From positions 682,001 through 746,000 of the forward strand of contig CM039003.1 of NCBI GenBank assembly GCA_017499595.2: a stretch of 64,000 nt of DNA. Direction: 5' to 3'. This DNA comes from Psilocybe cubensis (taxonomy: Eukaryota). A model generated the notes under the pieces. It did no database searches. It was given only the letters and a program-made list of their open reading frames with translations, and was not told where the DNA came from. Numbering within the stretch: position 1 is the first letter of the stretch; every line of letters begins with the position of its first letter. The position numbers and the translations under genes were made by a program. Positions 1 through 58,710 of the stretch are shown one piece after another.

Positions 1-9
1 GACGACTTT

Positions 10-2637: not shown

Positions 2638-2695
2638 TCTATCCCCCCCTTCCTTCCGCAACCGGGGACGGTTGATTTCTCAAGTTTGGGACGGA

Positions 2696-19985: not shown

Positions 19986-20089
19986 CATTCTTTTTGATTA
20001 GATATAAGCATGTATCTTATTTGTGCTTGATCATTTGTGATATAATGCCATCAATTCAAGAATCCTAGCTAATTCTGGATCTTGCCATT

Positions 20090-23000: not shown

Positions 23001-24170
23001 AGCAAATAGAAGAGATGTGTTCTAGTATATGGCCCTTAAGAGCTCAAAGTTGTTGGGTAAATGTGAAACCCTGGTATACAATAAACAAGATCAATGTGGG
23101 TATTATTATAGATGTGGCTGTTTCAATAAAATATCCAATGGCTCTCAAACTTAAAAGGTCGGGATTTGACTTCTGTGTAGTGACTTAATAATAGGCACAA
23201 GAAGACTGGACAATGTTGTGTGGGCAGTTGGTCTTAAGCTTGCATAGGGCATAGATGGGGGAAGGCAGAATAAATATGGACTGAAGGCACTAAATTGTCG
23301 ACTATTTTTACAGCCGGTGCATATAGTATTAATCTGGGTGCACTAGTTGATAATATTAAGGCCATGAGTGCACTAGTGCCTACCACTTTTTATGATAAAA
23401 CAATAGCAAGTGTTAGCACACTCTTTTTATAACTGTTGATGGTTTTATCACAAAGCCAAATAATGAGAAGATTAGCCTATTTTTTATAAGTTTTGCTTTG
23501 CTTTTTCAGTCTTTTTCATTAGATAATACCATGCTTTCTCATTATCTTTAGGATACTTTTTTATTACCTTTTGATTAGATACCAGCCTGGTTATTTGATA
23601 AGATAGTTCTACATCAATATATCTTATTTATGCCTGGTCATTTCTAATGCCATGCCATCAAATTAGGAATACTGTGGGTACTTCTGGATCATGTCTATCA
23701 ATCTATCAAAGCTATTATTAAATAAACTTTTCTCTTCTTGGCCTCTGGATCTATAAATAGTGCTCATCCTATGCTACTTTTGTGCATTGCTGGCAATAGA
23801 TTGGGCACTTTTGGGGGCATTAGTAGATCTATATTTTAAAGGTGTCTAAATCCAAATCTAAAATTAGAATTGCAATATCTTTACTTGTTATTGTACAATT
23901 AAATGTATGATGTTTTGGTCAAAAAGTGCACCTTGAATAATATACTCCAGGGGTTAGTCTGGGCACCTTTAACTATGCCATTATTTTTTATTTATAATAA
24001 ACGGAGTACATGCTAAGTTTCAGCTCAATTGAAGCAGTGAAATCTATTGAACTAGCATATGTATCCTACCTCTCCTCCTACCCCTTGTATGAATATCTTC
24101 CTGATTTGATAAATTCAAGCCAAACTGAGATAATGTAGGTGCTTATTATACCAATTTTTAAAGCCCAAGA
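20090..24170. repeat. Dispersed AT-rich modules in both orientations
   Basis: Module B at ~20290-20680 (+), ~21655-21915 (-), ~22120-22510 (+) and ~23860-24170 (+). Module A (ATGCTACTTTT..GGGGGCATTTCTGG) at ~18445, ~20150, ~23760 and inverted at ~24180-24245. Confidence 0.8.
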
Positions 24171-24633
24171 TAGGAAACGGTCCAGAAATGCCCCCAAAAG
24201 TGCTCAATCCATTGCCAGCAATACACACAAGTAGTATAGGATGAGCGCTACTTATAGACCCAGGGGCCAAGGAGAGAAAAGTTTATTTAATAATAGCTTT
24301 GATAGATTGATAGACACGATCCAGAAGTACCCACAGTATTTCTGATTTGATGGCATGGCATCAGAAATGACCAGGCATAAATAAGATATATTGATGTAGA
24401 ACTATCTTATCAAATAACCAGGCTGGTATCTAATCAAAAGATAATAAAAAAATGCCCTAAAGATAATAAGAAAGCATGATATTATCTAATGAAAAAGACT
24501 TTGAAAAAGCAAAGCAAAACTTATAAAAAATAGGCTAATCTTCTCATTATTTGGCTTTGTGATAAAACCATCAATAGTTATAAAAAGAATGTGCTAACAC
24601 TTGTTATTGTTTTATGATAAAAATGGTAGGTAC
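23376..24633. repeat. Foldback: ~445-bp inverted arms with ~365-bp spacer
   Basis: 23376-23821 is the reverse complement of 24187-24633, roughly 90% identical by eye. Confidence 0.9.
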
Positions 24634-25117
24634 CACTCATGAGTGAGACATTTGCATCAAATCTCAACTATTTGATTTTGTTACCTCTTTTCCTCCTTCT
24701 CTTGAAGCACAAGAAAAACCTCAAAGGTCAATAAAATATATAACAAAAGTAAAAATCTTGATTGCATATAATACTTACCCTAGCTGTATGATTAGCATAC
24801 AAAACTTTGCTATCTAAGTATATTGATTCATTTGTCAATATTTACTAAATGCTCTACAAAAGCCTGTTTATTTGCACAGCTTCTATATACACATCTCTTC
24901 TCCAACAACCTTTACCTTCCTTACAGTCTTCCTCAAAACCACTCCTTCAACCTCTTTTATCATTTTAAATTTTCTCATTCAACTCATTATGCCCAATTTG
25001 AATATCCTTGTGGACAAAGCAATGCACTACTTTAATTTTGTGATGGTAGTCCCAATTTTTATTAGTGGAATGTTGTGCATCATCCTGATGTTCCTTGGCA
25101 ACATTATGGCCCCTATT

Positions 25118-25565
25118 TGTCAGGGTTTCTCCAGTTTCCCCTTTTTATCTTCACAGAATTATCTTATCCTTTCATTATCTTATCAATTATCTGATTAGAT
25201 AGTTTATTTCTTTCATCACAGCCTTTTTGCTCCACTTCTTTCTAGTAAATTCTATATGATTCCTAGTCTTACTCATCCTTTTTCTATATGATGTCACTTT
25301 TATTCTTTAACCTTCCTTTATGATGTAATGTAGGGAATATTCTAGAATAGCTGTAGAGTATAAATACTGGACTTGTAGGTAGCTGTAGCTTCAGCTTCAA
25401 TCTCTTAGGATATCCACTATTATTAGTGTGATCTCTTAGAATCATTGAGTCTCTCTCACTCTCTTATTCTCTCTTTGCTCTCTTACTCTCTCTCTGCTCT
25501 CTCTCTCTCCCTTGCTTGATCTTTGTTGGTGGCCTTGTCACACTAATTATAGTGTTGCCCTGACA
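25118..25565 (+). repeat. 5' LTR of Gypsy C
   Basis: TGTCAGGG..CCCTGACA; TATAAATA at 25359-25366; about 8 transitions relative to the 3' LTR. Confidence 0.97.
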
Positions 25566-25567
25566 GA

Positions 25568-25578
25568 AGATTGAAGCT
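25568..25578 (+). promoter_or_regulatory. Self-priming primer-binding site (Tf1/sushi type)
   Basis: AGATTGAAGCT is the exact reverse complement of AGCTTCAATCT at 25393-25403, 34 nt after the TATA start. Confidence 0.8.
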
Positions 25579-26058
25579 CTCTCAAGACAACTCCACCATC
25601 TCTCTTTCAACACCAAACTCTTCAACCTCTTCAACCTCTTCAACATCATCACCTCAACCTTCTTCCCCCACTTCCAACCCACCAACCTCTTCATCAACCT
25701 CTTCACCAATCTTCTTATCAACCTCTACATCTCCACCAATCTTCAACATCCTCCTCAAGACCTTTCCTCAAGACCTTTGGCTCATCATCTTTCCTACTCT
25801 CTGTTGTGTGCTGTGTGTGAACTTAGTAGATAGGAATACCAACTGTTGGGGCAGACACAGTCCTACTAGTGTTCTGTTTTTGGTGGTCTAGGAAATATCC
25901 AGTAACCCTGTGATGCTAGGTTTAGAGCCCTGAGTGGTGTGACAACTGGGTATCCAGTAGATAGATATTTTTTTTAGAATACTTAGTATAGTTTCAAGGG
26001 CACTTTTAGTAGATAGCTTCTCCCACACACACATCAGAGAGCCTACCTACCCCTACCC

Positions 26059-27168
26059 ATGGACATGGACCTCTCCCAATTGCCTCCCACCACTCCTTCT
26101 GTGGAAGAGCTCATGCATCAGGTTCAGCTCCTTATCCAAGAGTTGAATTTCCTTAGACAGCAGCAGCAGTCATCATCCACTCCACCACACCCTCAGCAAC
26201 CAGTCAGTCAGTCACCATCATCACCACCACCACCACCACCTGCTGCTCTAGATATTCACTCTTTCCCTACCCCTCATGTTGCCCCTTCCTGTTCACACTC
26301 TCTCATTAAAGTCTCACCTCCAGATCCATTTGATGGTTCTATGGAGAAGGCAGAAAACTTCCTCAGTCAGCTCAAATTATATTTCTATGGGAAAGGGATT
26401 ACAGATGACTTTCAGAAAGTTATTTGTGCTCTATCTCATATGAAAGGAGGTACTGCTGGGAAGTGGGCATATGAGAAGACTAAAGTAATAGACAATGCTC
26501 AGTCCCAAGCAGGTCTTTGGGCTGACTTTGTTTATGAATTTAGGGAAGTGTTTGCAGATCCAGACCCCTCCAACACAGCTAAGCATAAAATGCACATGCT
26601 CAAGCAAGGCAGACAGACTGCTGATGAGTATGTTGCTAGCTTCAGGGCTCTGATCTCAGATACTGGGTATAATGATGCTGCTTTGGTAGACCAATTCAAG
26701 GCTGGGCTTAATGAAAATCTCAGGAATGCAGTCTACTATGTTCCTGACATGCCCAAAACCTTGGATGGATGGATTAAATGGAGTACTAGGCTAGATAGGC
26801 AGTGGAGACAGAGTGAGGCCTTTACCAAGTCTCTTTCCTCCTCCTCTTCTTCTCCCTTTCTTAAAGCCCCAACTCCCAAGGCTGTTTCTAAGCCTACTCC
26901 AAATCCTCCAGTCTTTTCCAACAGCAGCTCAAGAACCTTTGGTGCTCAGGCAAAGCAACCAGATGTAGTTCCCATAGAGGTTGACTCTGGATAGAAGTCA
27001 GTTAGGCCAATTGTTTGCTTCAAGTGCAGAAAGCCTGGTCATAAGGCTATAAACTGCAGGTCATCAGTTAACATCAATGCTATGACCCATGAAGAACTGG
27101 CTGACTACTTTGGGAAATTAATCTTGGAAGGCAAGGAGCAGAAAGATGAGGAAAAGAAAAATTTTTAG
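26059..27168 (+). pseudogene. gag: Gypsy C Gag
   Basis: PDPFDG, LSHMKGG and LKQG..TADEY capsid motifs; CFKCRKPGHKAINC knuckle; one premature TAG at 26992. Confidence 0.9.
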
Positions 27169-30100
27169 AAGCACCATTGGTGAAAGACATGTCCCAATGA
27201 AATAGATTTAATGTACTAGAAAATGAAATTGACAGACTTGATCCTCAGTCTTCAGATTCTGGTGCAGAAATCATGTCTTCTTCTTCCTCTCTTTCTACCT
27301 TCCCTGAAAAGATCTACATCCTCAACCATAATCCTAAAACCTCTACCCATTTGTCTGTCATCTTAAAGACAATGGACACAGAGAAAAGGTTATCTGTTGA
27401 TGCTTTGCTTGATTCTGGAGCTACTGGCCTTTTTCTGCATTCTGGTTTTGTGAAATATCATAATCTCAACACAAAAAAACTTCCTAGAGCCATTCCAGTC
27501 TATAATGTTGATGGTACTCTCAACAAGAGTGGCTCTATCCATGAAGAAGTAGACTTAATTATGGTATACAAGAACCATACAGAAAGGGCCACCTTTGCTG
27601 TTTGTGACTTGGGAGACAAATCTGCTATCATTGGACATACTTGGCTTTGGCACCATAATCCAGATGTTGATTGGAAGACAGGGGATGTTCAGTTTATTAG
27701 ATGTCCCTCTGACTGCCAAATGGAAGCCAAAAGAGCCAGAAGAAAGAGGCAGAGAATAGCTGCAGTCAAAAGAAGAAAACTCCCTCAATTTGATGAAGAA
27801 GAAGATGATTCTATTGAAGATTCTTCTGATTCTGAGATTGAGCCTGAGGACAGAATTTTCATCTCATACCTTCATCCTCAGAAGCAGTCTATTAATGCTA
27901 CTTCTACTATGTCTCAAAGATTAGCAGAAGAGTCTCATCAGCAAGCTGATTCTCCTAAGAAAACCTTTGAAGAAACTGTCCCTAAGCACTATCACCAGTT
28001 TAAAGATGTTTTTTCAAAGGAATCTTTTGATAGGCTACCAGACAGGAAGCCTTAGGATCATGCTATTGAGCTGAAACCTGGTTCTGAACCTTATAGATCC
28101 AAGATTTATCCTCTCTCTCCCAATGAACAAAAGGAACTTGATGCCTTTTTAGAGGAAAATCTGAAGTCTGGCAGGATTAGACCCTCCAAGTCACCTATGG
28201 CCTCCCCTGTATTCTTTGTCAAGAAGAAGGATGGATCTCTTAGGCTTGTCCAGGACTATAGGAAACTGAATGAAATGACCATCAAGAACTCCTACCCCCT
28301 TCCATTGATTTCTGACATTATCACCAAACTCAGCAAAGCCAAATACTTCACCAAACTTGATGTTAGGTGGGGATTTAACAATGTCAGAATCAAAAAGGGA
28401 GATGAATGGAAAGCAGCCTTTAGAACCAATAGAGGGCTGTTTGAACCATTGGTCATGTTCTTTGGTTTAATCAATAGTCCTGCTACCTTCCAAACTATGA
28501 TGAATGATATCTTTATTGAGCTCATTGATGGAAATGTTGTCATTGTCTACATGGATGACATTTTAATTTTCACTGAGACTCTTGATCATCATAGAGAGGT
28601 AGTCAAGCAAGTTCTGCAAATCCTAGAACAGAACAAACTCTACCTTAAAGTAGAGAAATGTGAATTTGAAAAGGAAAAGATTGAATATCTTGGACTAATC
28701 ATTTCACAAGGCAGGATTGAGATGGATCCTGTCAAGGTAGAGGGAGTTTCTAAATGGCCTGAACCTGAAAATGTCAAGGATGTCCAATCATTTTTGGGAT
28801 TTGTTAATTTTTATAGAAGGTTCATAGAGGATTTTGCAGACATTGCTAAGCCCCTTTATGAATTGACAAAGAAAGGAACAGTCTAGAGATGGAGCCTTAG
28901 ACAGCAGGAAGCCTTTGACCAGTTAAAGAAGAAAGTCACTTCTTCACCTGTCTTGATTTTCCCTAATGATAACAAGCCATATAAAGTTGAAGCAGATAGT
29001 TCAGATTATGCTACTGGGGCTGTTTTATCTCAGGAAGGATCAGATGGGAAATGGCATCCTGTAGCCTTTATGTCTAAGAGTCTATCTGAAGTAGAAAGGA
29101 ATTATGAGATCCATAACAAAGAGATGCTGGCTATTATCAGAGCACTAGATGAATGGAGACATTATCTTGAAGGAACCCAACATTCCTTTGAGATTTGGAC
29201 AGACCACAAAAACTTAGAGTACTTTATGGTTGCCCAAAAGCTCAGCAGAAGGCAAGCCAGATGGTCACTCTTCCTGTCCAGATTTGATTTTACTCTTCAT
29301 CATAGGCCTGGTAAAAGATCTCTTAAGCCAGATGCTTTGTCTAGGAGACCAGATCATAAAAAGGGAGTGAATAATAACCAAAATGTAGTTCTCCTCAAAC
29401 CTTCCTACTTTAAAATCCAGGCTCTCAAGCAGGGTCATGCTACCATTACTGGTGCAGAAAATGATCTTCTTAAGAAGATTAGAGAAGCTAAGGAGATGGA
29501 TGAAAAGGTGGTTAAGGCAGTTCAGGAGCTCAAGAAATCTTCTACCAAGAAGATTGAAGGACAAGAATAGTCAGAAGAATAAGGCCTTATTCTCTACAGA
29601 GGGAAGGTGTATGTTCCCAAGGACAAAGATCTTAGAAGAAAGATTGTGGAACTGCACCATGATGCCTTCATTGCTGAACATCCAGGGAAATGGAAGACAA
29701 TTGAGCTAGTCTCTAGGAATTATTGGTGGCCAGGAATGTCACATTTTATTGCAGCCTATACCAGAGGTTGTGATAGATGCAACAGAACCAAAACCTTTCC
29801 AGCCAAACCTCTTGGCCTTTTAATTCCTACTGAGATTCCCTCTGATGTCTGGCAATGCATCTCTGTGGACTTTATTATGGGGTTACCAGAATGTCAAGGG
29901 TATAATGCCATTATGGTGGTTGTGGATAGACTTAGTAAAATGATCCACATTATCCCTACTACAGATGAAGTCACTTCTGAAGGGACAGCCAGACTATACA
30001 AAGATTATGTCTGGAAACACCATGGCTTACCCATTAAAATTCTGTGTGATAGAGGTCCACAGTTTGTCTCAAGGTTTATGAAAGAACTCAACTCAATACT

Positions 30101-30824
30101 TGGTATCCAGACAGCCTCATCTACAGCCTACCATCCCCAAACTGATGGTCAGACTGAAAGAGTTAACCAAGAAATTGAGCAGTATCTTAGACTCTTTATA
30201 AACCATAGACAAGATGATTGGGTTGAATGGTTAGCTCTAGCTGAATTCTCTTATAACAATAGAGTTCAGGCTTCAACCATGCAGACACCATTCATGCTCA
30301 ATAATGGCAGACATCCCAGAATGGGCACTGAACCCCTTAGAAATAGTAAAATGGACACTGTGGATACCTTTGTGAAAAATATGGAAGAAGCCAGGAAAGA
30401 AGCAGAGTCTGCACTTAGAAAAGCTGCTGATGATATGGCTAAATTCTATAATAGACACAGAGGTACTCCAACTCAGTACAAAGTTGGGGATTTGGTATGG
30501 TTGGATGGCAAGGACCTTAAAACTGATAGGCCCTCCAAGAAATTGGATGATAAAAGATATGGGCCTTACAAAATTACCAAAGTTATTAGTCCTAATGCCT
30601 ATGAGCTTAAGCTGCCATCTACCATGAAAATCCATCCAGTATTCAATGTGGTTAAACTTTTACCTTATCACCCAGATATTGTAGGAAGAAAGCCTCCTTC
30701 TAGACCACCACCTGTCATTCAAGGAGAAAATCCTGAGTGGGAAGTTGAATTTATCAAGGACAGCAGACTTTTTAGAAACAAACTTCAATATTTGGTCAAG
30801 TGGAAAAACTATCCTAATGAAGAA
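27159..30824 (+). pseudogene. pol: Gypsy C Pol (PR-RT-RNaseH-IN-chromodomain); remainder resumes at 39208-39429
   Basis: LLDSGA, YMDD, EADSSDYATG, TDHKNL, HPG/CDRC, TDGQTER, GPY and YLVKWKNYP motifs; premature stops at 28053, 28884, 29568 and 29580; -1 slippery site AAATTTT at 27159-27165. Confidence 0.93.
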
Positions 30825-30889
30825 CTTGTTTTAGTGGGCCACCGCGGAGCGTGGTGTGACAAGTCTTTACAATTCAGTGTCATGCTTTG

Positions 30890-30972
30890 TAATAATATAA
30901 TATATATATAATATAATATATATATATAATATAATATATATATATAATATAATATAAATAATAAATATAATT
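30890..30972. repeat. TA-rich microsatellite inside the element end
   Basis: Run of TA/TAA units directly visible. Confidence 0.95.
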
Positions 30973-31234
30973 ACAAATCTTGAAATCATTCCCGCGCGCC
31001 CGTTTGGGTAACTGAAGAAGTGCGGCGCAATAGCGGCTATCGACTTCTTAGAAGTTGATAGGCTGCCATGAAGTGGTGGGGGTCAAACAGACCCGCCCAT
31101 CTTCCTCTTTCTTCCCAACCCCCACCATCTCCAACACCTCCCAGCAGTATTCGGCCCACCTCGTGCTCAAAAAAAACCGAAAAAATGACAAAATATTCAG
31201 ACGGATTGGCATTGACGGCAGGTACGTGCCGAAT

Positions 31235-31841
31235 CTATTTTAATCCGCAGTTTTATTTTATTCATTGCGTTTCGTGCGTTTTGCGCTGTGCAGGCAAAAC
31301 GCTTGCGTGCATATTTGTTAAAGGTGAGTAGTGGCCTGTTTTCAACTGTTATTAACTCACCTATCGCTTTTAGACGGCGTCACAGACGTATATCGTCCGT
31401 ATTCTCTGATTTTTTGCATTTGTTGAAGGTTTTGGCCGCACGCAAGCCAGAAGCATCCTCAGTTGTACCAAATAGTTTCAGATTGTGTTTCGTCTTTATG
31501 GATTGCGCATGAAGCGCATACATTTTGGAGGCAACAGTTTCGGTCATTCCAAAATGGGCAATGGAAGAGCATACAATATAAGACTTCTTCTTCTCACAAA
31601 CACGTTTGAAGATGATGCATCTTTGGCATCGAATGGGATTCATGCCCTTGCACTCTTTGCTGACGTTGGTACAACCCACGCAAGTTGGTAACGGATTGTC
31701 TTGCAAGGCGATGAGATAGGGAGAGTTGTTTGATAACAATTGTTGCACAAATTCAATGTAATCCTTTGCAGAGACATTGGTAGATGTCGTATTATTGATG
31801 GGGGAATGATCATTGGCTGATTGTAATGTGGAGCTGTCTAT
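31235..31841 (-). pseudogene. Cargo 1: small Zn(II)2Cys6-spacing protein, two exons
   Basis: CVGC-x6-C-x7-CQRC-x6-C at 31596-31682; intron ~31361-31288; probable ATG decayed to ATA at 31841; TGA at 31380 may be a decayed CGA. Confidence 0.65.
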
Positions 31842-32104
31842 TCTGAATCGTTTGAGAGATATGAAGAAAGTGAAAAGTGAAAGAAAGGAAATGAAACATC
31901 ATGATGAACAAAAAAACATGACTTTAGGGCAAGTGTATCTGTTCAAGTTTATATGACAGGTGCATAACTAAGGAGTTTATATGACAGCTGCAAAACTAAG
32001 GAAATGTTATTTTGTGTATGGCATGAATATGAATAGAGATCTTAAAGCTGGATAGCATGAGCATCAAATAGACGCTGAGTTAAGCAAGTTCATAAACAGG
32101 ATGA

Positions 32105-32149
32105 CCGTGGGAACATCCTGTGTACAGTGTACACAGGATATTCCCACGG
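32105..32149. repeat. 45-bp palindrome, copy 1
   Basis: CCGTGGGAACATCCTGTGTACA-G-TGTACACAGGATATTCCCACGG: 22-bp arms, one mismatch. Confidence 0.95.
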
Positions 32150-32297
32150 GGGCAGCACGTCACCCCTGTGTCCAATTTGATTTTATATCATGTCGACGTC
32201 ACCAATACATTATGGTCCAACCACCTCAAAACCATTTGAAACAGCACAGAATAACAGAATTTGAATGCCATAGATAGTAAAACAAACTTTGATTGTT

Positions 32298-35200
32298 TTA
32301 TGTAGAATTAAAAGAAAAGAGTAGGTACATATTTGCAACCCACTCTCTAGTCAACAGTTGGACTGGACAGCAAAAATCCCCACTATGCATAGCATAGTTG
32401 AACAATTTAAAATGATTTCGACCGGTTGCAGGTTGTGCAATGTGAATCATATGGGACATAATGACCATCGAACCATAGGGTATTTCATTCCACAAAGGAA
32501 GATATAAATTTCTGTCTTCCAGCATCTCCTTGGTGAAAGTCTTCTCAGAAAAATCCTTCAACAAAGTACGCAAATCATAAATTGGAACTGCCGCAACGTA
32601 TTAAACTTGGCAATAAATAATGGGATAAACTGAGGACTCACATTTTTTGCCGTAAGCCAACATTGTGGCTTTTTTCTTGGGCTGAGGAGTCGTCTTGAGC
32701 AATACCGCCGGTGCGGTTGTAAAAAGCAACTTAGGAAGTGTCTGCGCGGTAGAGCTCATTTGTTCATCTGCTGTGTGCGGTAGTCAGGAATGTCACATAG
32801 CCAAATAGAATTATGGTACTTACCACTTTTGTTGTTTGGTTTGTTCTTGGTGGTAAATTGTATCACGTTGTAGTAGGAAGGGACCTCTAACTTTGGTTGA
32901 TGGGTTACCATCCTGATGACAGCCAAAGCCCGGTCCCACCAATATGCCATCGGAACCCCTTGGACGTAATGGCCTCCCCATGTCAATTGAGGATTCATTT
33001 TGTGAAGAAACGAGGACGTTGTCACAATTGGAGTTAGGCACTGTAATGGCTCTCCAGATGCGTTTCAAAGTTCGTAATGTTGTCCCCACATGGACTGTGA
33101 CTTCAATAGCAAAGGGCTAACGCGACCAAGATTGACAAAACATTCCTCAATAGAAAAGTTGAGGAAGGATGCAAGGAAACTACCATTGGGAGATATATCA
33201 CAAAGGATGGCAAATAATGACACATAAGCGACTTACCTGGAGGGAAAATTCGCGCCATGCCACTGTTGCAATTGACTGAAGCCCACTAGCCCATGAACTT
33301 GAGTGGTGTCGACGTTGCTAAAGGTCTCTATTTGCCTGCACTATCTGTCAATATGTGTGCTGTGTCGCATATGATTTGAGGTTTACCTGAGGTGTGGAAG
33401 GTTTTTGTAACATCCTTTCACTTCGAATTTGGGATCTCTAGTAATTCCAACCAAAACCTCGCACGCAAATGGCAAAGCCCTGAATGATATACAAATGTAT
33501 GTGTAAGCTCATGTCACAAAATAAACGAGAACATGTACGCTGATTGAACATGATTGAGATTGGAGTCGTATACCAAAAGAGCAGGATTTCAGAGGCTACG
33601 TGGTCCCAGGGCGGGTGGCACAACACTGGGAGCCGGAATAGCGGCACTGGTGACAACAGGAGCAATAACGCTGGCTGTAACGGGGGCAGACACCACAACA
33701 GTATCATTGTCGGTAGCAACAGAAACAGTTCCCGCCTTGGGTGCCTGAGACTTCTTCGCAATCTTGGAACGAGGTGTCGACACTTTGCGGGTATTTTTTG
33801 AAGGAGATTTGCTTTCAAATATCAAAGAAGGAGTTCCAATATTGACGATAGAAAGAGCATTCATCCTGGAGGACGGAGTTTCTGCAGCAGCCTTGCGGGC
33901 TGATTGCCTGGCAGGAGTAGCAGGAGTTTTGCCGGCTTTCTTCTTGGGGGTGGCCCTCTTTGTCGGAGAAGGCGTAGGCGGAGGTTCTGTGCACATACGT
34001 TTGGTACTGCACCACTAGGGTCAACAAAAACCAAAGTTCAAATCAAATTAATTGTAACGTACAGAGACCTATCTGCAACAGGAGTTGCGGGTGTTGCTGG
34101 CAATTGTGACCGACTGAGATTTAAAAAAAAAAAAAACCAGCCATATCAGTACGACTTGAAAATCCGTATAACTGATGAACAACATACTGCGTAGGAAACT
34201 CAGGTGTAGAGGTAGACTCCCTCGGCCTTTTGATTTTGCGGGATTTCCGGAGAGTTGGGGCAGAAGTAAAGACACTAGAAACAATACAGTGAGAGAAAAA
34301 CTACCAATAAGTGAGTAAAAGACTCACTCGTCGATGGGAGGTGCGGGGACGCTGATGATGTTCAATCAATAATTGACCAGACAGTGAAGATGATAACATA
34401 CTTTTTAATTGGCTCCTCAATGTCCTCTCCTTTGTCAGTAAGAATACCTCCTTGCTCTTCAAGATTGTTCAAGTCATCTTCAACATCTTTGTCACCTTTG
34501 TCTTCCTCCTCTTCCTCCTCGTATTCTTCGTCCTCAAGTGCGTCTTCATCATCTTCAATGAAGTCTTCGAGGTCTTCGGAGTCACCGCCTTGCTCCTTTT
34601 CATCTTTGTCGTCGTCGTCGTTGTGGTCATCATCATCATCATTCTCGTCACGCAGCTCACCATCTGTAACCACCTCTTCTGCATCAGATGCTCCTTCATA
34701 TTCCTCATCAGCTTCGACCGCGTTGACCGTTGCCGCTGTGGGAACTCCTTGGCAAAGCCTGATATAGAAATTCATTAGAAATGAAACGTAATTGCCCGAA
34801 GGAGAAACGTACATGGGGTTTCTATAAAAAGTGCAAATATTATTTAAGAAAATACATAGGTTTAGAGCGCAAAACAATCTATAAAACAAAAGAAAATGTA
34901 CCCAGGCCTGAATTTCGTTTCACTGACAGTCACATGGGTCTTCTTGGGCTGTACAGGAGGGACTTTGGACAAAGGAGGCTGTTGAGCAACAACATTGGAT
35001 GCAGGTTTACTAAAAGCACACAATAATCAATAACAGACTTATAGCAAGACAAATAAAAACACTGTACATTGTTTTCTTTTTTGGGGCAGCTCTCTTAACC
35101 TGGGCGTCCATGTCAGCAGTTTTTCTAAGAAGAAAAACGAAGATAAAGGTAAGTTAAATTTGGGAACAAAATAACAGAGGTACATACTTGACAACCTTCG

Positions 35201-35333
35201 CTGCAGCAACTTGTTTGTTGGTGACCTTTTGAGCAGGGGGCGCTGTACTAACAGGAGGGACAGCAAGAGCTGGCAACGGAAGTCAAACTGCCAAAGCAGC
35301 AGTATCAGCGTTCTTTTTAGCTTTAGGAGGCAT
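32298..35333 (-). pseudogene. Cargo 2: multi-exon gene with basic N-terminus, acidic tract, P/T/K-rich linker and beta-rich C-terminal domain
   Basis: Start MPPKAKK at 35333; many short GT-AG introns; D/E tract ~34410-34730; C-terminal PIYDLR..LPLWNEIPYGSMVIMSH; some stops and frameshifts; exon structure only partly resolved. Confidence 0.65.
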
Positions 35334-35699
35334 TTAAGGACGAAGTCTTAGGGAAAGTTGAAGCGTGGATGACAAGGACAAGAAGAGGGATAACAAAGAA
35401 TATATGCCAAATCAATTGGCTTGGACTTAGATAATGATCAGGGCCATTGAATCTTTCAGACGCAAAGTAAACAGGAGAGCAGGAAGAAATTTGACCCAGC
35501 AGAAACCTTGGAATTCTCAAAGGAATAACCAATCAATTTTAGTGATCGCTTGAAGAGAATATCCAAAGACCATGGTGCGAATGATTGTACCAAGAAAGAT
35601 AAAAATGAAGATCCACAAGAACAGGGGGCATAAATGAAGAACAGCAAGAACAGGGGGGGCGGGCATACATTATAATATATCAAGTGCGATTTGATTGAG

Positions 35700-36834
35700 C
35701 ATGATACAGAAGTACTTTGACACCCTTGGAATGTCATTAACAATGGACAAGAACTACAACATAAACGCCGCGAGTGAGTTTTTCTTTCATTCTTCATGTG
35801 TACAAAAGCTGATCAAGATTCAGAACTTAAACTTGAAAAAATAGTGAACAAACAACAATTGAACCCCAGCCACGTTCAATTATACAACGCGGATGTAAGG
35901 AATTCAATTGCTAAGCTTCAAAAACTTGCTACCACCAATGGCAAAGCCTGCTTTGTACGTCTACTCCATTGAGGTAAATTAATTACGAATGAAGACTTAA
36001 CACTGTGTTACAGCTGCAACAGAATGGTCAAGCAATGACCATATTTACGTACCGCCATTGCTATCATGGGACTTGGAGACATTGCGTTTGATAAGGCGAT
36101 GGAAAAGCTAGAAGAAGTTTTCCTCCATTTTGCAAACAATTTTCCCGCGGACAGCGTCAGCGGCTATGACCCAGTTCTTCACAAAGACACAGGTTTCAAC
36201 GTTTTCCATGCGCATAGCCGATATTTCACAAAGGTATCCGCATATCAAGACAAATCTGACAACATAGGTTTTCATCCCCTGGTTGACCCTGATAACGTGT
36301 TGGCGTCCATGGCAGGGGACGGTTTCATCCACGCAATCGATAACGAGGTACAGTTTCTTCGTCGGGAGATACTTCCTGACGGAACAGCCAGGTATGTTTA
36401 GAAAATACCAACAATGCATCACAACCAAACTAACATCATGTTGCAACAGATATTATCCTTATAATCCTGTCTCCATACAAATTGGAGACATTGTCGAAAT
36501 CAGTGTTGCCTTTGTCGCATTTCCTGCCCAAGGAAACAAGTACAAATTTGTTGTCGCTCTTCGCGGAATACTTGTCTTGGACCAGGAGGCAAGAGAGGTA
36601 AGCAATGTTACGTTGAACAGTCTCATAGCCATTCATAACTTCCAACAGAAAGCTGATATTCTCAGAATGCGGTCGCGCTATACTCCAGCGAAAAGACAGG
36701 TTGCTGTTTTGCATAGGACAAAGAGGCAGCTATACAAAGGTCAGATTGACATTGAAGACACGCAACAGAGGATGGCACGTATGCGCTTAAACGAGGACAC
36801 AGTCCACAATAGCAATACTATGTCCCAAGATTAA
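35700..36834 (+). CDS. Cargo 3: spliced hypothetical protein, possibly OB-fold-like; 5' end uncertain and possibly damaged
   Basis: Introns 36392-36449 and 36598-36648 join ORFs 36066.. and 36283.. in frame; motif IQIGDIVEISVAFVAF..KFVVALRGILVLD. Confidence 0.65.
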
Positions 36835-36980
36835 TACACATGTAGTATATAGAAAGACAAGGATATCATAAATGTGCTAAACAAACAATCAATCCATTTG
36901 CGAGAACATTGTGAATAACAAGGAATAATTTGTCAAGTCATTTTCATGACAGAAATTCTCTGAAGGTGTTAGTTGGCATC

Positions 36981-37095
36981 CCGTGGGAGAATCCTGCGTA
37001 CACTGTATGCAGAATATTCCCACACTCGGCTGAATATTGGGAGAGGTTGACCGTGGGAATATCCTGTGTACAGTGTACGCAGGATTCTCCCACGC
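36981..37095. repeat. Palindrome copies 2 and 3, themselves inverted relative to each other
   Basis: 36981-37025 and 37051-37095; lie between the convergent 3' ends of cargo 3 and cargo 4. Confidence 0.93.
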
Positions 37096-37174
37096 TCATC
37101 CGCAAGTCAAATTTACAAATTAAGACGAAAAGAATGAGGACAAGAACACAAGTTTATTTCAAACAAAAATTTGA

Positions 37175-38582
37175 CTAAGGATGGAAGAAATTACAAATAT
37201 CCATTCCACAAGAGGCTCTGTGGTCGAGGGCAATGCAACCAAAAAATATCTGCCTTTCTGGATAGCAAATACAAAACAGTCGCATGTACATGGTCATCTT
37301 TTTGCCTACATTACAGGAATTAAATTGACGAATGCCAAAACTAAAGAGCACACACCTTATACCCCTTTCCCAGGATTTGATAGCTTTTTTGATGCGCTCG
37401 TGTAATTGGTAAACATCCACCGCTGTGTAGTGAAAATCCAATGCGATACCGCTGATGCAACGGACACCAAAATGCAAACAATTGAATTCATTGAGCAACA
37501 ATGCCTATGAATTGGCTTCAATAAAGGAAGTCTGATTTGCTTTGGGTAAAAGAGGCAAAGAATAAACCCAACAATGCCTGTCGCCAACCCGTCTAATCCC
37601 AGGAGAGAACAACTCTGGACAAGGATCGTAATGCAGCTCAACGAGAACATGACCACGAGATGAACTATATCCAACATTTAAGTTGTCCCTGATAGACTGT
37701 ATCCTGCTTCGGATATGGCAGTCCATTTTCAAAGTTTGCAATAGAATGGAAAGAACAAATTTCAAGCCACGGGAATGATATTTTGCAAGAAATTTTTGCG
37801 CGCGCTTGAGGTCGGCAGGAGGTTGCAACAGAGAGACTTGATGTCCAAAGGTAGCATTTGGATACAAGCTGTACACCTTCTCAAAGGTAACAAAATTCAT
37901 GACGCCGGCTGCAGTAGAACAAAATTGAAGTTAACATTGTTTCGACACATGATATTGGGGACATACTGCTATGATACCCCAAAATGCACTCTACCACCGA
38001 TTGACAAGTCGTAATCAGTTGGACAAAAGAACCTTGGCGCCATAGGTTAATGACCACTCCGGTGGTATTGTAATGTCGATGAAGAGGATGTTCCTGAAGG
38101 ACGATTTTTTCCATTTTCAAAATTTGTTCCGCCGTGGCGTTGTCCGGATATTTGGGATGCGGCATGATGGTAAATCCAATGGACATCATCCAGGAAAGAA
38201 CGGGAAGTGCATATCTGTGCTCAACATACATGTCCATGTCACCCGGAATCCATGTATTAGCACGATTGATAAAATGCAAAACGGTGGAACCTGAAATAAC
38301 TAGGCCAGTCTTGAACTGGAGAAGACGAAATGGCAAATGTTCATCGGGTTTGAAGATAGGAGCAAATAAATTTTCGGGACGGAAGGCGCAGTGCATATAG
38401 CCCGAAACGCGGTTGTTTAGCTCCTTGCAAGTCCAAGAGAAACGGTAGAGGGTTTTCAGATCCATCTGATCCATGTACACATCGTCCATGGGAGGCGGAA
38501 AGACTCTAAAAAATAAATAATAACCAAATGAGATAAAACAGTGAACATACTGTTGGAAACGGGGGGATAACGCGGAAGCCAT
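37175..38582 (-). pseudogene. Cargo 4: F-box-like N-terminus plus Pol-beta-type nucleotidyltransferase-like domain
   Basis: MDLKTLYRFSWTCKEL; GLVISGSTVLHF..PGDMDMYV fits hG[GS]-xn-DhD; an intron joins GYHS to TGVMNFVT; one probable TGG>TAG at 37505. Confidence 0.65.
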
Positions 38583-39429
38583 GGGTAAAACAGTGCGGAG
38601 GAAAGTGCATTGTTTATACTACGTCAATAAATATATTAACCGTAAGCCAATAGACGCCCGACATAGGGGAAGAACAAATCAGTATGCGTGAGAAACGATC
38701 ATGAATCAGAAAATCAAATTCAAATAGTACAGAACGCCCAGAACCCAAGAACGCGTAATTATTGAACGTGTGTGCCTGCACAGTTCTATTTCCAACCTTT
38801 CAGACCCATAGTTCAAAGAGTGCATTCGTTCCATCTCTAAGTATTAGTACAATATATAAGCACGTCAGCTAGACGGTTCCACATGGTTTTAAAAATTAAA
38901 CAACAACGCAAAAAAGTGAATTGAGTAGGACTATTGTTGTAATTAATTTTATGGAAACGCACATTCACATTGCAATCAAAACAAATCAAAAACAAACTTT
39001 AAAGTAACCAATGGTAAAAAGAAGTTGTAGAATGAATTGGAAAGGGGTTGCTTAGGGGGTCCAGTGACCGCTTAAGGAAAATACCGATACCGGTAACGAC
39101 ATTGATCGCATCAATAATATTTTGATGGGGACAATTGGCGAGGACATTTTTGCTCGCTGGGTTGTGGGGATAAAAGAACTCATCTTTACTTATGTAAAGA
39201 CTTGTAATGCACTTAGGAGCCTGCAGAGCATTTGAAAAATGCTTCTAAGGCTATCAAGGACTTCCATGCCAAACATCCTTCAGCACCTAGAAGGATTTCT
39301 GCTGTGACCTTTGATAGACTTTCTTTCACTCCTATTATTAACTTTACTGAACCTCCTCCTCTTCTTAAACCCTCTAAACTAACCCATCCATGTGCACATT
39401 GTGGAAAATGTGCCTTAGAGAGGGGGTGA

Positions 39430-39879
39430 TGTCAGGGTTTCTCCAGTTTCCCCTCTTTATCTTCACAGAATTATCTTATCCTTTCATTATCTTATCAATT
39501 ATCTGATTAGATAGTTTATTTTTTTCATCACAGCCTTTTTGCTCCACTTCTTTCTAGTAAATTCTATATGATTCCTAGTCTTACTCATCCTTTTTCTATA
39601 TGATGTCACTTTTATTCTTTAACCTTCCTTTATGATATAATGTAGGGAATATTCTAGAATAGCTGTAGAGTATAAATACTGGACTTGTAGGTAGCTGTAG
39701 CTTCAGCTTCAATCTCTTAGGATATCCACTATCATTGGTGTGATCTCTTAGAATCATTGAGTCTCTCTCACTCTCTTATTCTCTCTTTGCTCTCTTACTC
39801 TCCCTCTGCTTTCTCTCTCTCTCCCTTGCTTGATCTTTGTTGGTGGCCTTGTCACACTGATTATAGTGTTGCCCTGACA
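39430..39879 (+). repeat. 3' LTR of Gypsy C
   Basis: Direct repeat of 25118-25565, followed by TSD CTATT. Confidence 0.97.
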
Positions 39880-46415: not shown

Positions 46416-47423
46416 TATGTGACGGATCAGTCAACCATCAAACTGCACAGCTTTCTACACTGCCTTGCACAGCCGGACTGTCAACTCTATTTTTTTCAAC
46501 TCAATGGTCTTACTCAGTGTCAGACTGCAGATTACTCATTCCAACTTATTTTTGGTTTGTCTTACTCATTCTTTTGTGTTTATTTATATCATTTTTATTG
46601 TCTGTTGCGCTTTTATTGTCTTTGTCTTACCAATCTTCTATGTTTTCTGACTCATTCTTGCTTCTTTTATCTAATCTGTATTATTATTCACCTTCATTGT
46701 ATACTTCTTTTTTATTCATCCTATTCATTTTTCATCTGTTGTCGTGTCAATATTGACATGTCTTATTATTCTTGCTTATTATTATGCTTGCGTAGCCTCA
46801 TTCTTGATACTTTGTACAGTATATGACTTGGTTTTCAGTAGCTTAGATTGGTATTTTGTTCACATAACTTTTAGTATAAAAGCTGTAGTAAAATTACACA
46901 AAATGACAGGAAAGTTACACCCAGTCCCCACTTTCTTCAAAGCAAGTCAATTTTCATCCAAGTCAAGTCAGTTTCAAGTCAATCCACATCAATTTATTCC
47001 AATTCCAAGCCCAAGCTCAAGCCCAATCCCAAGTCCAAGTCCAATTCAGTCATTAGTTCCACCCTCCAACAAGACCAAGTTCACATCCATTCATCCAAAG
47101 TCATCTTGCTTTCCATTGACAGAGAATTTCATCCAAAACCAGTCCTCTTTCTCCTCCAATGCCTCTTCCCAGTATTGAAGATCTCACGTCTATCCAGACA
47201 TCCAGTACTTCACTACTTCCTCTCCTCTATCCAACCCGTCATCACTTCTTCCCCTTCTACACCTTCTAACCATTGCTGTTAGGAGTAGATCCAAGACATC
47301 TTTCCCTCCGTCAACTCATCTGGAGTGATTTCATTCAAGACAGACTTAGTCTTTCATCCTTGATTCAGTCAATACTCCCACAACATATAGCTTCATTCCA
47401 AACGTCAGAAAGATTGTCAATTT

Positions 47424-56420: not shown

Positions 56421-57329
56421 CATGTTTCTTAGCCATGCCATTGCAGAAGTTAGATTATTTTGAGTGAATTGTATCAATTTGTAAATGAACAAATCCATTG
56501 TGTTCAAATTCATGGACACATTGCATTTCAGACAGAGTTTAAATTCATCAATGTGACTTTGCAAGATGTTACCATTTTTTATAGTTTGGGGTCTGAAAGA
56601 CCAAAAAAATGGTTTTACAAGCTATAATTCTGCACAAAGGCATTGAACGCTGCAATAATGGTGTGTGCCAATTTTTGTGCTAATAGCACAAGTGCAAAAA
56701 AGAGAAATTAGCATTTGATGCCCTGTTATCAGGATAGACAGCTAAAGATTATGAAACTAAATACCCTTACAAGCAAAATTCTCATTTTTTTTTGCATATT
56801 CATATACCTATAGGCAAAATACATATAAATGCACAAAAAGATTTGGGAAAAACACATTATTTTAAGGCAAAAAACAGGAATTACAAGACTTTATATAAGT
56901 AAAGCAAGTTTTTTTTATCTCCACAACCCTCTGTGCCTTGTTCCTATCATGGGGATATGGAAATTAAAATCCTGGATATTAGCTAGGTAGATAGGTTGGC
57001 TGCTATGTGGTAGAAAACAAAATTAGATATCATTACATCATGATTTTTTAGTCACAAATTAAACATTTTAAAGCAGAGATTTATTATTCAAGACCAAAAA
57101 TTTTATGATAATGACACCATTCAATTGATTTGAGCCCATTCATTAGTCACAATCAATTCTATACCAAGTGTTTTGCATGCTTTTCTACACTTCCAACAGC
57201 AAGTAGAGGTAAATAGAATGCTCTGTTGTTATCAAATGAAGTTAGCATGAAAGACTATTAGACTAGGGAGGAATAGAATAAAAAATAATAAACATTATAT
57301 ATCTAGCTATCATTAATGCCACTTCAAAT

Positions 57330-57700
57330 AACTTGTCATATTAGACTTGTAGTGTTTGTACTGGCTATAAATTAATAAGTAGGTTGTGGGAATAACTTGC
57401 ATACAGTATATGCAAGTTATTCCCATGGTTATTCCAGTATGTCTTAAGCAAGTTGAACTTTTTTGGTAATTTCTGATACATTACTAAGATGCATTGTATG
57501 TGTTTCAGGTAAAATACAAGTATCTTTGGCAATAGTAATTATCTTCAATATTACTTTAGATTATCTTGTCATATTAAACTTGTTGTGCTGTTTGTACTAG
57601 CTGTAAATTAATAAGCAGGTTGTGAGAATATCCTGTGCACACTGTATACAGGATATTCCCACGGTCACCACACTCACTTTGCATTGAGCAATTTGAACTT
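57330..57700. repeat. Diverged ~236-bp tandem duplication containing palindrome copies 4 and 5
   Basis: 57384-57428 and 57620-57664 match the 45-bp palindrome family and share upstream flanks. Confidence 0.85.
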
Positions 57701-58710
57701 CTTTGGTTAATCACGGCAATCACAGCTGGCCACTATGGTCAAGAGATAATCATTTTGAATAATGTTTTCCGTGCATTAAAAGGTTTGTTCAGCATACAAA
57801 ATGTACTTAGCACATGTAATTTACACATTGAATATATTTTAGGAAAGAAATAATGTACTAGCATCTGCAAATTATGCTTGAAATATGTTTCTGCACAGCC
57901 AATTGTGTTTATGGCAACATTATACTAAGCCAAAAAGCAATCCACACACCAAACAAATGTTTCCACACACAAATTTTGTTTTATTCTTGATGCACTTTTC
58001 AAAAATAAGAAAATAATATTTATGGGGAATATTTCTTTACTTGGGCAGCCATACACATGAGCATTCTTCCATCAGTTTTTCCTATAAGATTCTTTTAGCA
58101 GATTTGGAGCTCTTGAATATTTAGCAGGTGTGCAGATTATAATAGACAAGTCCTTGGTTATAATCAGGCCTTATAATCTGCATAGCTCTTTTGTGTCCGA
58201 CACAACTAAGCTTGTAGTAGACCTAAGTCATAGTGACTTAATCATGACCTTGCCCAGTATTTGGTTGTGCATTCAGAACATATTAATATATTAACTATGT
58301 TACATAAATCTAGATTAAAAATATTTTATACAATTGTGAGATGTAAAGTCTTGTCATGCCACACATTGTGTTGGCCCATTAAAACAAGTTTGAATCTCTA
58401 GGTCAGTTTGAATCCCAATGATCACATTAGTACTTATAAAACAACATAAGATTGGGATCAAGGTCAAATCAGGTAAACCTGTTTTTATCAAAAAAGATAC
58501 TATTAACAAAAAAATAGTTCTGCAGAGACAGATGGAAAAGAAAATTGTGTACTGGTATTGTACATATGATATGTAATGCAAAGACAAGAAAACAAGTTGG
58601 ACAACAAAGTGACAGAACACACAACAAGGCGAAATAATGTGCAGCAAACGAAGCAGACATTTTTTTCTTTCCTATTCAAGGGACTGAAGCTAACATACGA
58701 AGATTGTATC

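What the first reader, a model, noticed from the sequence alone, without database searches (positions are those of the whole stretch)
30825..39207. 8.4-kb Helentron/Helitron2-like gene cassette with no Rep/helicase, inserted into a Gypsy chromodomain
Seen: the boundaries are exact, because excision restores GAA GAA TGC ACT TAG GAG CCT (EECT(W)EP). On the minus strand the unit reads TT-ACAAGTCTTTACA ... TGTAAAGACTTGT-CA-hairpin(CACCACG-CTC-CGCGGTG)-15 nt-TT. A TA microsatellite lies inside that end, and there are no LTRs, long TIRs or longer TSD. Established: asymmetric subterminal inverted repeats, a 3' hairpin and TT targets characterise Helentrons/Helitron2/HINEs. Inference: this is a rolling-circle element mobilised in trans. 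It carries four intron-containing genes (Zn2Cys6-like, two beta-rich unknowns, F-box-like/NTase-like) punctuated by palindromes, which looks like an organised accessory gene set rather than random captured fragments. It is the best candidate for an undescribed system in this window.
Basis: partly seen in the sequence, partly recalled or inferred. Interest (0 to 1): 0.85.

Follow-up and report, generated by a model that had tools for sequence, protein, structure and literature searches.

The report
Gene-carrying Helitron2-type transposon in Psilocybe
An 8.4-kb mobile element with the end structure of Helitron2/Helentron rolling-circle transposons, but no transposase of its own, sits inside a Gypsy retrotransposon of a Psilocybe genome and carries a gene pair that recurs at many places in that species.

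Summary
Removing 30825-39207 restores a Gypsy chromodomain without a gap. The two flanks match the same solved chromodomains at contiguous residues.

On the minus strand the insert has all the terminal features of Helitron2/Helentron elements:
- a 13-nt asymmetric inverted repeat
- a 5' hairpin overlapping that repeat
- a 3' hairpin directly after the subterminal copy
- a T at the 5' end and a TT target

A second, 1.5-kb element at 56881-58388 has homologous ends and the same internal palindromes. It shows one compensatory change in the repeat pair and one in the 3' hairpin. None of the 38 non-Gypsy ORFs carries a Rep, helicase or other transposase domain.

The cargo claim is only partly right:
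- One gene (37194-38582, minus strand) is intact and has a nucleotidyltransferase fold.
- Its convergent neighbour is a copy that has lost its 5' end.
- Paralogues of these two genes have adjacent locus tags at 14 of 15 loci in a Psilocybe cubensis annotation, so the pair is a dispersed repeat.
- The Zn2Cys6-like ORF and the other ORFs have no support.

Verdict: a new member of a known kind. Not testable here: genome-wide copies, the autonomous partner and expression.

The parts
30825..39207 (-). E1: the 8383-bp non-autonomous Helitron2/Helentron-type element (equivalent placements 30823-39205 and 30824-39206)
   Evidence: Interrupts the Gypsy chromodomain; the flanks match solved chromodomains contiguously
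39193..39205 (-). 5' asymmetric terminal inverted repeat (13 nt), 2 nt from the 5' end
   Evidence: Exact reverse complement of 30859-30871; these are the only two exact copies in the window
39183..39200 (-). 5' hairpin (7-bp stem, 4-nt loop) overlapping the 5' repeat
   Evidence: DNA fold -4.7 kcal/mol, z -3.15, 2 of 200 shuffles as good
30859..30871 (-). 3' subterminal inverted repeat (13 nt), 34 nt from the 3' end as placed
30839..30854 (-). 3' hairpin (6 pairs, one bulge), 4 nt after the 3' repeat and followed by a 14-nt tail to the 3' end
   Evidence: Fold (z -0.09, weak on its own). E2 folds in the same register, with one G-C to A-T double change
30892..30971 (.). AT-only tandem repeat (period 18, 4.6 copies) just inside the 3' repeat
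37194..38582 (-). G4: intact 5-exon gene of 384 aa, with an F-box-like N-terminus and a Pol-beta-type nucleotidyltransferase fold
   Evidence: A public Psilocybe cubensis protein (P0001) is encoded letter for letter by the window. AF2 pLDDT 80.5. CCA-adding enzymes match at Foldseek E 4e-5 and VIA Z 10.4. The GS...DxD motif is present
35926..36834 (+). G3: copy without its 5' end of a ~271-aa gene family of unknown fold, convergent with G4
   Evidence: tblastn with 11 paralogues: residues 1-25 of none of them align, and a stop lies upstream. AF2 was poor, pLDDT 44
36981..37095 (.). Two adjacent ~44-bp palindromes between the 3' ends of G3 and G4
   Evidence: DNA fold -45.9 kcal/mol, z -10.7
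32105..32149 (.). Third copy of the palindrome
   Evidence: fold -22.6 kcal/mol, z -7.8
31380..31898 (-). ORF with Zn2Cys6-like cysteine spacing; unverified as a gene
   Evidence: No Pfam family at E up to 1; no homologue of 94-301 aa
32298..34814 (-). Further minus-strand ORFs (a heuristic 233-aa model and an acidic/basic low-complexity 338-aa model); unverified
   Evidence: My own splice-chaining heuristic only; no Pfam families
56881..58388 (+). E2: second, 1.5-kb family member with a homologous 5' end (41 of 50 nt), a homologous 3' end (39 of 49 nt) and two copies of the palindrome (57380-57425, 57620-57665)
25118..39879 (+). Host Gypsy (chromovirus) element: LTRs 25118-25565 and 39430-39879, 98% identical, with the 5-bp target duplication CTATT

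Best explanation
E1 (30825-39207, oriented on the minus strand) is a non-autonomous member of a Helitron2/Helentron-type (HLE2) rolling-circle transposon family. It lies in a Psilocybe genome; the species reading comes from the names of the protein matches. E1 inserted at a TT inside the chromodomain of a young Gypsy element.

Inferred mechanism, taken from the family and not shown here:
- A RepHel protein encoded elsewhere in the genome recognises the 5' repeat and hairpin and nicks at the T-rich 5' junction.
- It unwinds one strand and stops where the subterminal 3' repeat, the hairpin and the conserved tail mark the end.
- The single strand, probably circularised, is then pasted into a TT.

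E1 carries a convergent gene pair with strong palindromes between the two 3' ends: G4, a nucleotidyltransferase-fold protein, and G3, of unknown fold. The same pair is dispersed over at least 14 loci on 10 contigs of a P. cubensis assembly. I take it to be cargo that the family, or a relative of it, captured from a widespread Agaricomycete gene family and amplified. Most copies are decaying. The remaining 5 kb of E1 is unverified ORFs or captured sequence.
For: 1. Exact insertion into a coding domain, with no gap after removal.

2. The terminal anatomy meets each published structural feature. The 13-nt repeat lies 2 nt from the 5' end. Its second copy lies 34-36 nt from the 3' end, directly upstream of a hairpin. 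A 5' hairpin includes part of the 5' repeat. The element starts with T and the target is TT. Definitions come from passages read in PMC3627910, PMC4067079, PMC5148889 and PMC11417382.

3. A second element in the same window has both ends in the same order, and otherwise shares only the palindromes. Each end motif occurs 2 times in 64 kb, only at these two elements.

4. There are two compensatory double changes between E1 and E2. Repeat position 6 pairs T with A in E1 and A with T in E2. One 3'-hairpin pair is G-C in E1 and A-T in E2, in the same register.

5. No Rep, helicase or DDE domain occurs in any of the 38 ORFs of at least 70 aa.

6. The cargo is repeated.

7. The host Gypsy is young (LTRs 98% identical, intact target duplication), so the insertion is recent.
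Against: - Only two family members were seen. No genome is held for this window, so genome-wide copy number, further TT targets and paralogous empty sites are untested.
- No RepHel gene was found in the window, and none could be searched for in the genome. The autonomous partner is therefore hypothetical.
- The 3' hairpins are no more stable than shuffled sequence (z -0.09 and 0.04). The 5' hairpin of E2 is also weak (z -0.65).
- A 2-bp TT target duplication cannot be told apart from Ts that belong to the element.
- Whether the 14 G3-G4 pairs elsewhere lie inside elements with these ends is unknown.
Confidence: 0.8

Rival explanations
1. The Helitron2-type shell is real, but the G3-G4 pair belongs to a separate, unrecognised mobile unit. 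That unit either nested into E1 or was captured once, so the 14 other pairs are not inside elements with these ends and E1's gene content is a one-off mosaic.
For: - E2 shares only the ends and the palindromes with E1.
- E1's G3 copy has lost its 5' end while G4 is intact.
- 9 of 23 G3-family locus tags have no listed G4 neighbour.
- Helitrons are known to be mosaics of captures (PMC4289320; PMC11417382).
Against: - All copies of the palindrome found in the window lie inside E1 or E2: 6 arm matches in 4 palindromes, plus a more diverged fifth palindrome seen by eye in E2. In E1 two of them sit exactly between G3 and G4, which ties the pair to family-specific sequence.
- No internal target duplication or second set of termini was seen around the pair.
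Confidence: 0.25
2. A cut-and-paste DNA transposon (DDE type) that makes a 2-bp TT target duplication.
For: TT stands on both sides of E1 and E2, and the inferred empty site has a single TT.
Against: - The termini are not inverted. Both ends read ACAAG on the same strand. The inverted repeat is asymmetric, terminal at one end and 34 nt inside at the other.
- No transposase domain was found.
- I recall no DDE superfamily defined by a TT duplication with such ends; this was not searched.
Confidence: 0.05
3. A one-off segmental insertion (repair or recombination product) of host DNA into the Gypsy element, not a transposon.
For: Only one copy of the full 8.4 kb is visible, and much of its interior has no recognisable function.
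Against: - The second element has both homologous ends and compensatory changes.
- The junctions are precise and nothing was lost from the target.
- The cargo pair is multi-copy.
Confidence: 0.03

Closest known systems
Helitron2 elements as defined by Bao and Jurka 2013 (PMC3627910) and the fungal FoHeli1/FoHeli2 with their non-autonomous FoHeliNA derivatives (PMC5148889)
   Same: - A short asymmetric terminal inverted repeat, with the 5' copy 0-2 nt from the end
- The 3' copy subterminal and directly upstream of a hairpin
- A 5' hairpin built partly from the 5' repeat
- A T at the 5' end and no long target duplication
- Non-autonomous copies that share only the ends
- Compensatory changes between related elements

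   Different: - The end sequences are different: FoHeli start with TCAG or TGCCT.
- The 3' repeat is 34-36 nt from the end, against about 20-30 in the 2013 definition. This is within the 38-51 nt range of FoHeli.
- No RepHel partner has been identified.
- E1 carries whole spliced genes and strong 44-bp internal palindromes.
Helentrons and their non-autonomous HINE/DINE-1 derivatives (Thomas et al. 2014, PMC4067079)
   Same: - 12-15-nt subterminal inverted repeats, 2-4 nt from the 5' end
- A short inverted repeat nested in the 5' repeat
- A stem-loop near the 3' end
- Insertion in a TT dinucleotide, with Ts at the boundaries
- Microsatellite or tandem repeats inside

   Different: - Those elements are animal elements whose partners carry an endonuclease domain, which cannot be tested here.
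- HINEs are short and non-coding, whereas E1 is 8.4 kb with genes.
- E2 has no microsatellite.
HELPO1 Helitrons of Pleurotus ostreatus with 'cap' genes (Castanera et al. 2014, PMC4289320)
   Same: Agaricales Helitrons, autonomous and non-autonomous, that carry one to four whole gene-like sequences of unknown function. These sequences are species-specific and are found only within the elements.
   Different: - HELPO have canonical Helitron1 ends (5' T[C/G], 3' CTRR, an A-T target).
- E1 has Helitron2-type ends and a TT target.
- The G4 family is not species-specific but widespread in Agaricomycetes.
Class II CCA-adding enzymes and other Pol-beta-superfamily nucleotidyltransferases (for G4 only)
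   Same: The fold of residues ~52-278: VIA Z 10.4, rmsd 4.2 over 177 residues (4wby). Other CCA-adding enzymes score Z 10.0-7.3, a related bacterial protein (3aql) Z 8.9, and ANT(2''), LnuA, FAM46 and MenT score lower. The GS...DxD motif is present.
   Different: - Sequence identity is only 8-14%.
- There is no Pfam family and no sequence-level PDB relative.
- The N-terminus is F-box-like and helical.
- No tRNA-binding body or tail was aligned.

Membership tests
Helitron2 / HLE2 (terminal structure) | Short (8-15 nt) asymmetric terminal inverted repeat, with the 5' copy 0-2 (HINE: 2-4) nt from the 5' end | tested here: met
   13 of 13 complementary in E1 and 12 of 13 in E2. The 5' copy starts 2 nt from the end as placed.
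Helitron2 / HLE2 (terminal structure) | 3' repeat copy subterminal (20-60 nt from the end), immediately upstream of a 3' hairpin | tested here: met
   34-36 nt from the 3' end. The hairpin begins 4 nt after it in both E1 and E2. The stems are not more stable than shuffles (z about 0), but the register is shared and one pair is compensated.
Helitron2 / HLE2 (terminal structure) | 5' hairpin that involves part of the 5' repeat | tested here: met
   E1 has a 7-bp stem (z -3.15). E2 has 6 pairs including one G-T (z -0.65).
Helitron2 / HLE2 (terminal structure) | Insertion at TT (or a T-rich site) without target duplication; 5' nucleotide T | tested here: inconclusive
   TT stands at both junctions of E1 and E2. 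The inferred empty site of E1 has one TT. Ts belonging to the element and a 2-bp duplication cannot be told apart. No real empty site was seen.
Helitron2 / HLE2 | Autonomous partner encoding Rep (HUH) plus a Pif1-like helicase with the same ends | not testable with these tools
   No genome is held. None is present in the window.
Helitron2 / HLE2 | Multiple dispersed copies sharing both ends | tested here: inconclusive
   2 of 2 occurrences of each end motif in the window are paired correctly. A genome-wide count was not possible.
Helitron2 / HLE2 | Rolling-circle transposition (circular intermediate, joined ends) | not testable with these tools
Canonical Helitron1 | 5' TC, 3' CTRR, insertion between A and T | tested here: not met
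   The ends read TTACAAG at the 5' end and ACAAG at the 3' end, and the target is TT.
Pol-beta-superfamily nucleotidyltransferase (G4) | Minimal NTase fold with a G-S ... D-x-D motif | tested here: met
   S82, G83, S84, D100 and D102 are nearly invariant in 117 relatives. Fold matches: Foldseek E 4e-5, VIA Z 10.4. Catalysis was not tested.
F-box (G4 N-terminus) | Match to an F-box profile | tested here: inconclusive
   No Pfam hit. PDB F-box chains match at E 0.38 and 0.96. One Atlas look-alike cluster carries PF00646 on 11% of its members, and one relative is named F-box by its source.
Zn2Cys6 fungal transcription factor (ORF 31380-31898) | Match to the Zn_clus profile | tested here: not met
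   The cysteine spacing 2-6-7-2-6 can be read in the ORF, but there is no Pfam family at E up to 1 and no homologue.

The most novel reading that the evidence does not exclude
The convergent G4 (F-box-like plus nucleotidyltransferase fold) and G3 pair, with its ~44-bp palindromes, is not passive cargo. On this reading it is a family-wide accessory module of a Psilocybe Helitron2 lineage that works for the element. The proteins might tag or divert host silencing or repair factors or RNAs. The palindromes might act on the single-stranded intermediate, for example as priming sites for second-strand synthesis or as bidirectional terminators. This would parallel the TET/JBP genes carried by other fungal DNA transposons (PMC12730594).
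Probability: 0.12. Interest if true: 0.7.

Novelty: new member of a known kind. Interest (0 to 1): 0.4.

Why it matters
Helitron2-type elements are poorly catalogued in mushroom-forming fungi. The full-text search for Psilocybe together with Helitron returned 2 papers, each using the word Helitron once (listing only, papers not read). Tools such as HELIANO cannot, by design, find non-autonomous families whose partner is missing (passage).

This locus gives exact ends, a nested-insertion proof of the boundaries, and a small relative with compensatory changes. Together these are enough to seed a genome-wide search. It also shows that an uncharacterised but widespread Agaricomycete family of nucleotidyltransferase-fold proteins (1022 cluster representatives at E up to 0.001) has been multiplied, with a fixed neighbour gene, to at least 14 loci in one species. 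That matters for annotation, because dozens of 'hypothetical proteins' would be transposon cargo. It also matters for anyone asking what fungal Helitrons carry.

Tried and rejected
- **Whole genome:** none is held for this window.
- **Read evidence:** The look-up of sequencing runs listed 12 holders in 4 studies and no RNA holder. Nothing was laid, so the listed shares were not used as evidence. I have no evidence on empty-site polymorphism, copy depth or expression.
- **Earlier findings:** 4 look-ups returned nothing.
- **Metagenome scans:** the 5'-end motif gave 0 hits. The 3'-end motif with a variable gap gave 7 loci. None has the upstream repeat and 4 are the same gut-metagenome sequence. 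By my own rough estimate, about this many are expected by chance, so I rejected them.
- **Zn2Cys6-like ORF:** no homologue of 94-301 aa.
- **G3 structure:** pLDDT 44 from 18 near-identical paralogues, so it is unusable and no fold search was made.
- **G3 against the 150 G4 relatives:** no similarity, so no fused form was seen in that set.
- **Right flank against Pfam:** the 29-residue right flank alone gave no Chromo match, only a below-cut-off match to an unrelated family. This was replaced by the PDB test.
- **The other Gypsy (1-4300):** it has no chromodomain, so it gave no internal empty site.
- **Complex prediction for G3 with G4:** not run, because I make no binding claim.
- **Supplementary tables:** those of the HELIANO and FoHeli papers were not seen. 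They may list fungal families or captured domains that bear on novelty.

Full report
**What is in the sequence**

The window is rich in transposons. It holds a Gypsy fragment at 1-4300, a Copia at about 11.2-15.3 kb and a second Copia on the minus strand at 47.4-52.8 kb. Host genes appear only from 59 kb on.

The finding lies inside a complete Gypsy element at 25118-39879. Its LTRs (25118-25565 and 39430-39879) are 98% identical over 450 nt. It is flanked by the 5-bp duplication CTATT on both sides. Its pol reading frame runs through integrase into a chromodomain. Pfam Chromo positions 1-30 of 53 align to the last 29 residues before 30824.

**Boundaries**

The left flank ends at a codon boundary at 30824, and the right flank resumes in frame at 39208 with one TAG. 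I tested the restoration without joining anything. Each flank was searched separately against solved structures, with the TAG read as X.

Three chromodomain chains (2dnt_A, 6v41, 7n27) are hit by both flanks at contiguous positions, and the X falls on the W of the TWEP motif. The right-flank matches are individually weak (E 0.36-1.1); what counts is that the positions abut. So removing 8383 nt restores the domain without a gap.

Because AA (TT on the minus strand) stands at both junctions, three placements shifted by one base are equivalent. For the same reason, a 2-bp TT duplication cannot be told apart from Ts that belong to the element.

**Terminal anatomy, read on the minus strand**

- The element starts with TT followed by the 13-nt repeat ACAAGTCTTTACA (39205-39193).
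- Seven bases that overlap this repeat pair with the next bases downstream to form a hairpin (39200-39183). Its energy is -4.7 kcal/mol, z -3.15, and 2 of 200 shuffles fold as well.
- The reverse complement of the 13-mer lies at 30871-30859. These are the only two exact copies in the 64 kb.
- Four bases later comes a 6-pair hairpin with a bulge (30854-30839), then the tail that ends in ACAAG, then TT of the target.
- This 3' hairpin is no more stable than shuffled sequence (z -0.09).
- An AT-only repeat with an 18-nt period lies just inside the 3' repeat copy (30892-30971).
- There are no LTRs, long terminal inverted repeats or longer duplications.

**A second family member**

Searching the window for the 13-mer and for the internal palindrome led to 56881-58388 on the plus strand.

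- Its first 50 nt match E1's 5' end at 41 of 50 positions, and its last 49 nt match E1's 3' end at 39 of 49. Apart from the palindromes, nothing else aligns.
- Each end motif occurs exactly twice in the window, at these two elements and in the right order.
- Two differences are compensated. Position 6 of the repeat pairs T with A in E1 and A with T in E2. One pair of the 3' hairpin is G-C in E1 and A-T in E2, with the other pairs unchanged and the bulge shifted by one base.

This behaviour is what Bao and Jurka report for related Helitron2 elements (passage). With only two sequences it is suggestive, not statistical.

**Comparison with the definitions**

The passages I read agree on the defining features:
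- PMC3627910: 8-15-nt asymmetric repeats, with the 5' copy 0-2 nt from the end. The 3' copy lies about 20-30 nt from the end, upstream of a hairpin. A 5' hairpin involves the 5' repeat, and the element starts with T.
- PMC4067079: 12-15-nt subterminal repeats, a TT target, Ts at the boundaries that belong to the element, and microsatellites.
- PMC5148889: fungal FoHeli elements with the 3' repeat 38-51 nt from the end, and non-autonomous copies that share only the ends.
- PMC11417382: HLE2 elements insert between T and T.

E1 and E2 meet every structural feature. They do not meet the canonical Helitron1 signature.

**No transposase**

39 ORFs of at least 70 aa overlap the element. One is the Gypsy integrase. 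None of the other 38 has a Pfam family above its cut-off, and none matches Rep, a helicase, DDE or a tyrosine recombinase. The larger ORFs of the rest of the window are retrotransposon or host genes. The element is therefore non-autonomous. Its partner could not be sought because no genome is held.

**The cargo: G4**

- The 245-aa ORF at 37881-38618 matched Psilocybe cubensis proteins.
- One of them, P0001 (384 aa), is encoded letter for letter by five exons at 38582-37194, followed by TAA. This gene is therefore real enough to have been annotated, and it is intact here.
- Its family is large: 1022 cluster representatives at E up to 0.001 and 355 at E up to 1e-10.
- All 10 representatives I looked up are from Agaricomycetes, among them Panaeolus, Psilocybe cyanescens, Volvariella, Marasmius, Cerrena and Coniferiporia.
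- An alignment of 117 members has nearly invariant S82-G83-S84 and D100-x-D102.
- The AlphaFold model is good (pLDDT 80.5, pTM 0.81).
- It matches class II CCA-adding enzymes (Foldseek E 4e-5; VIA Z 10.4, rmsd 4.2, 177 residues). Other Pol-beta-type nucleotidyltransferases rank below them.
- The evidence for an F-box at the N-terminus is weak.

**The cargo: G3**

- The plus-strand ORFs at 36039-36834 belong to a family of about 271 aa with at least 11 hits in the first search.
- E1's copy aligns only from residue 26 on, and a stop lies just upstream. It is therefore a copy that has lost its 5' end.
- Its fold could not be predicted (pLDDT 44).

**The pair is a dispersed repeat**

The names that the sources give carry locus tags. 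Among the members listed (15 of 20 and 15 of 18 cluster members, plus the first hits), I count 16 G4-family tags. Two of them are adjacent to each other, which gives 15 loci. I count 23 G3-family tags.

- 14 of the 15 G4 loci have a G3 tag at the next number.
- 9 G3 tags and 1 G4 tag have no listed partner.
- That consecutive tags mean neighbouring genes is the usual convention and was not checked on DNA.
- G3 paralogues are 87-99% identical to one another, which points to recent amplification.
- Of 17 close P. cubensis G4 paralogue models checked (an 18th, divergent at 45% identity, is set aside), only 3 keep the N-terminal part with the GS...DxD motif. The other 14 start further downstream. 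This suggests that most copies are decaying, although poor gene models could give the same picture.

**Palindromes**

A palindrome of about 44 bp occurs at 32105-32149, twice at 36981-37095, and twice in E2. It occurs nowhere else in the window.

- As single strands the palindromes fold at -22.6 and -45.9 kcal/mol (z -7.8 and -10.7).
- The double copy lies exactly between the convergent 3' ends of G3 and G4.
- This ties the gene pair to family-specific sequence. The function of the palindromes is unknown.

**The rest of E1**

- The ORF at 31380-31898 has cysteines spaced as in Zn2Cys6 clusters. It has no Pfam match at E up to 1 and no homologue of similar length.
- Models for 32.3-34.8 kb come only from my own splice-chaining heuristic. 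That heuristic recovered 2 of the 4 known G4 introns as a control.
- I treat all of these as unverified.

**Verdict**

E1 is, with about 0.8 confidence, a non-autonomous Helitron2/Helentron-type transposon that inserted recently at a TT in a Gypsy chromodomain. It carries an amplified gene pair. The rolling-circle mechanism is inferred from the family and is not shown here.

Gene-carrying Helitrons with genes of unknown function are already known in Agaricales (PMC4289320), and Helitron2 elements are known in Agaricus (PMC12730594). This is therefore a new member of a known kind. The 20 domains that HELIANO reports as stably captured, as far as the passages I read name them, do not include a nucleotidyltransferase (supplement not seen). 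A four-term full-text search returned two papers; the one listed is unrelated. The nucleotidyltransferase cargo may therefore be new as cargo.

Noticed in passing
window 56881-58388: A 1.5-kb non-coding relative of the element. It contains a ~240-bp internal tandem duplication, and each unit carries one palindrome (57380-57425 and 57620-57665).
   Followed up: yes
window 25118-39879: The host Gypsy has 98%-identical LTRs and an intact CTATT duplication, yet its pol is broken into five ORFs, and a TAG replaces the chromodomain tryptophan. The coding decay is faster than the LTR divergence would suggest. Whether the changes are transition-biased (RIP- or methylation-like) was not examined.
   Followed up: partly
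window 2870-4317 versus 46416-47423 and 52815-53249: The 3' part of the first Gypsy-like element recurs at 85-89% identity further on. There it is split by a Copia element (47424-52800) whose 197-bp LTRs are 97% identical. This is another nested insertion.
   Followed up: no
window 10506-10774 and 11875-12143: A 269-bp direct repeat at 96% identity, only 1.4 kb apart. Its second copy lies inside the Copia gag-pol ORF region. It is unexplained.
   Followed up: no
window 18400-24650: An AT-rich block (28-36% G+C) of mutually similar, partly inverted repeats at 72-93% identity. It is probably degenerate repeat DNA.
   Followed up: no
window 31946-32002: A 28-nt unit repeated twice in tandem (93% identity), just upstream of the first palindrome and next to the start of the Zn2Cys6-like ORF.
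   Followed up: no
public proteins P0044 and P0024/P0030 (source locus tags JR316_0004011 and JR316_0004007/0004008): A divergent G4 paralogue (45% identity) is annotated four locus tags away from one G3-G4 pair. This hints at a local cluster, or at a possible source gene for the capture.
   Followed up: no
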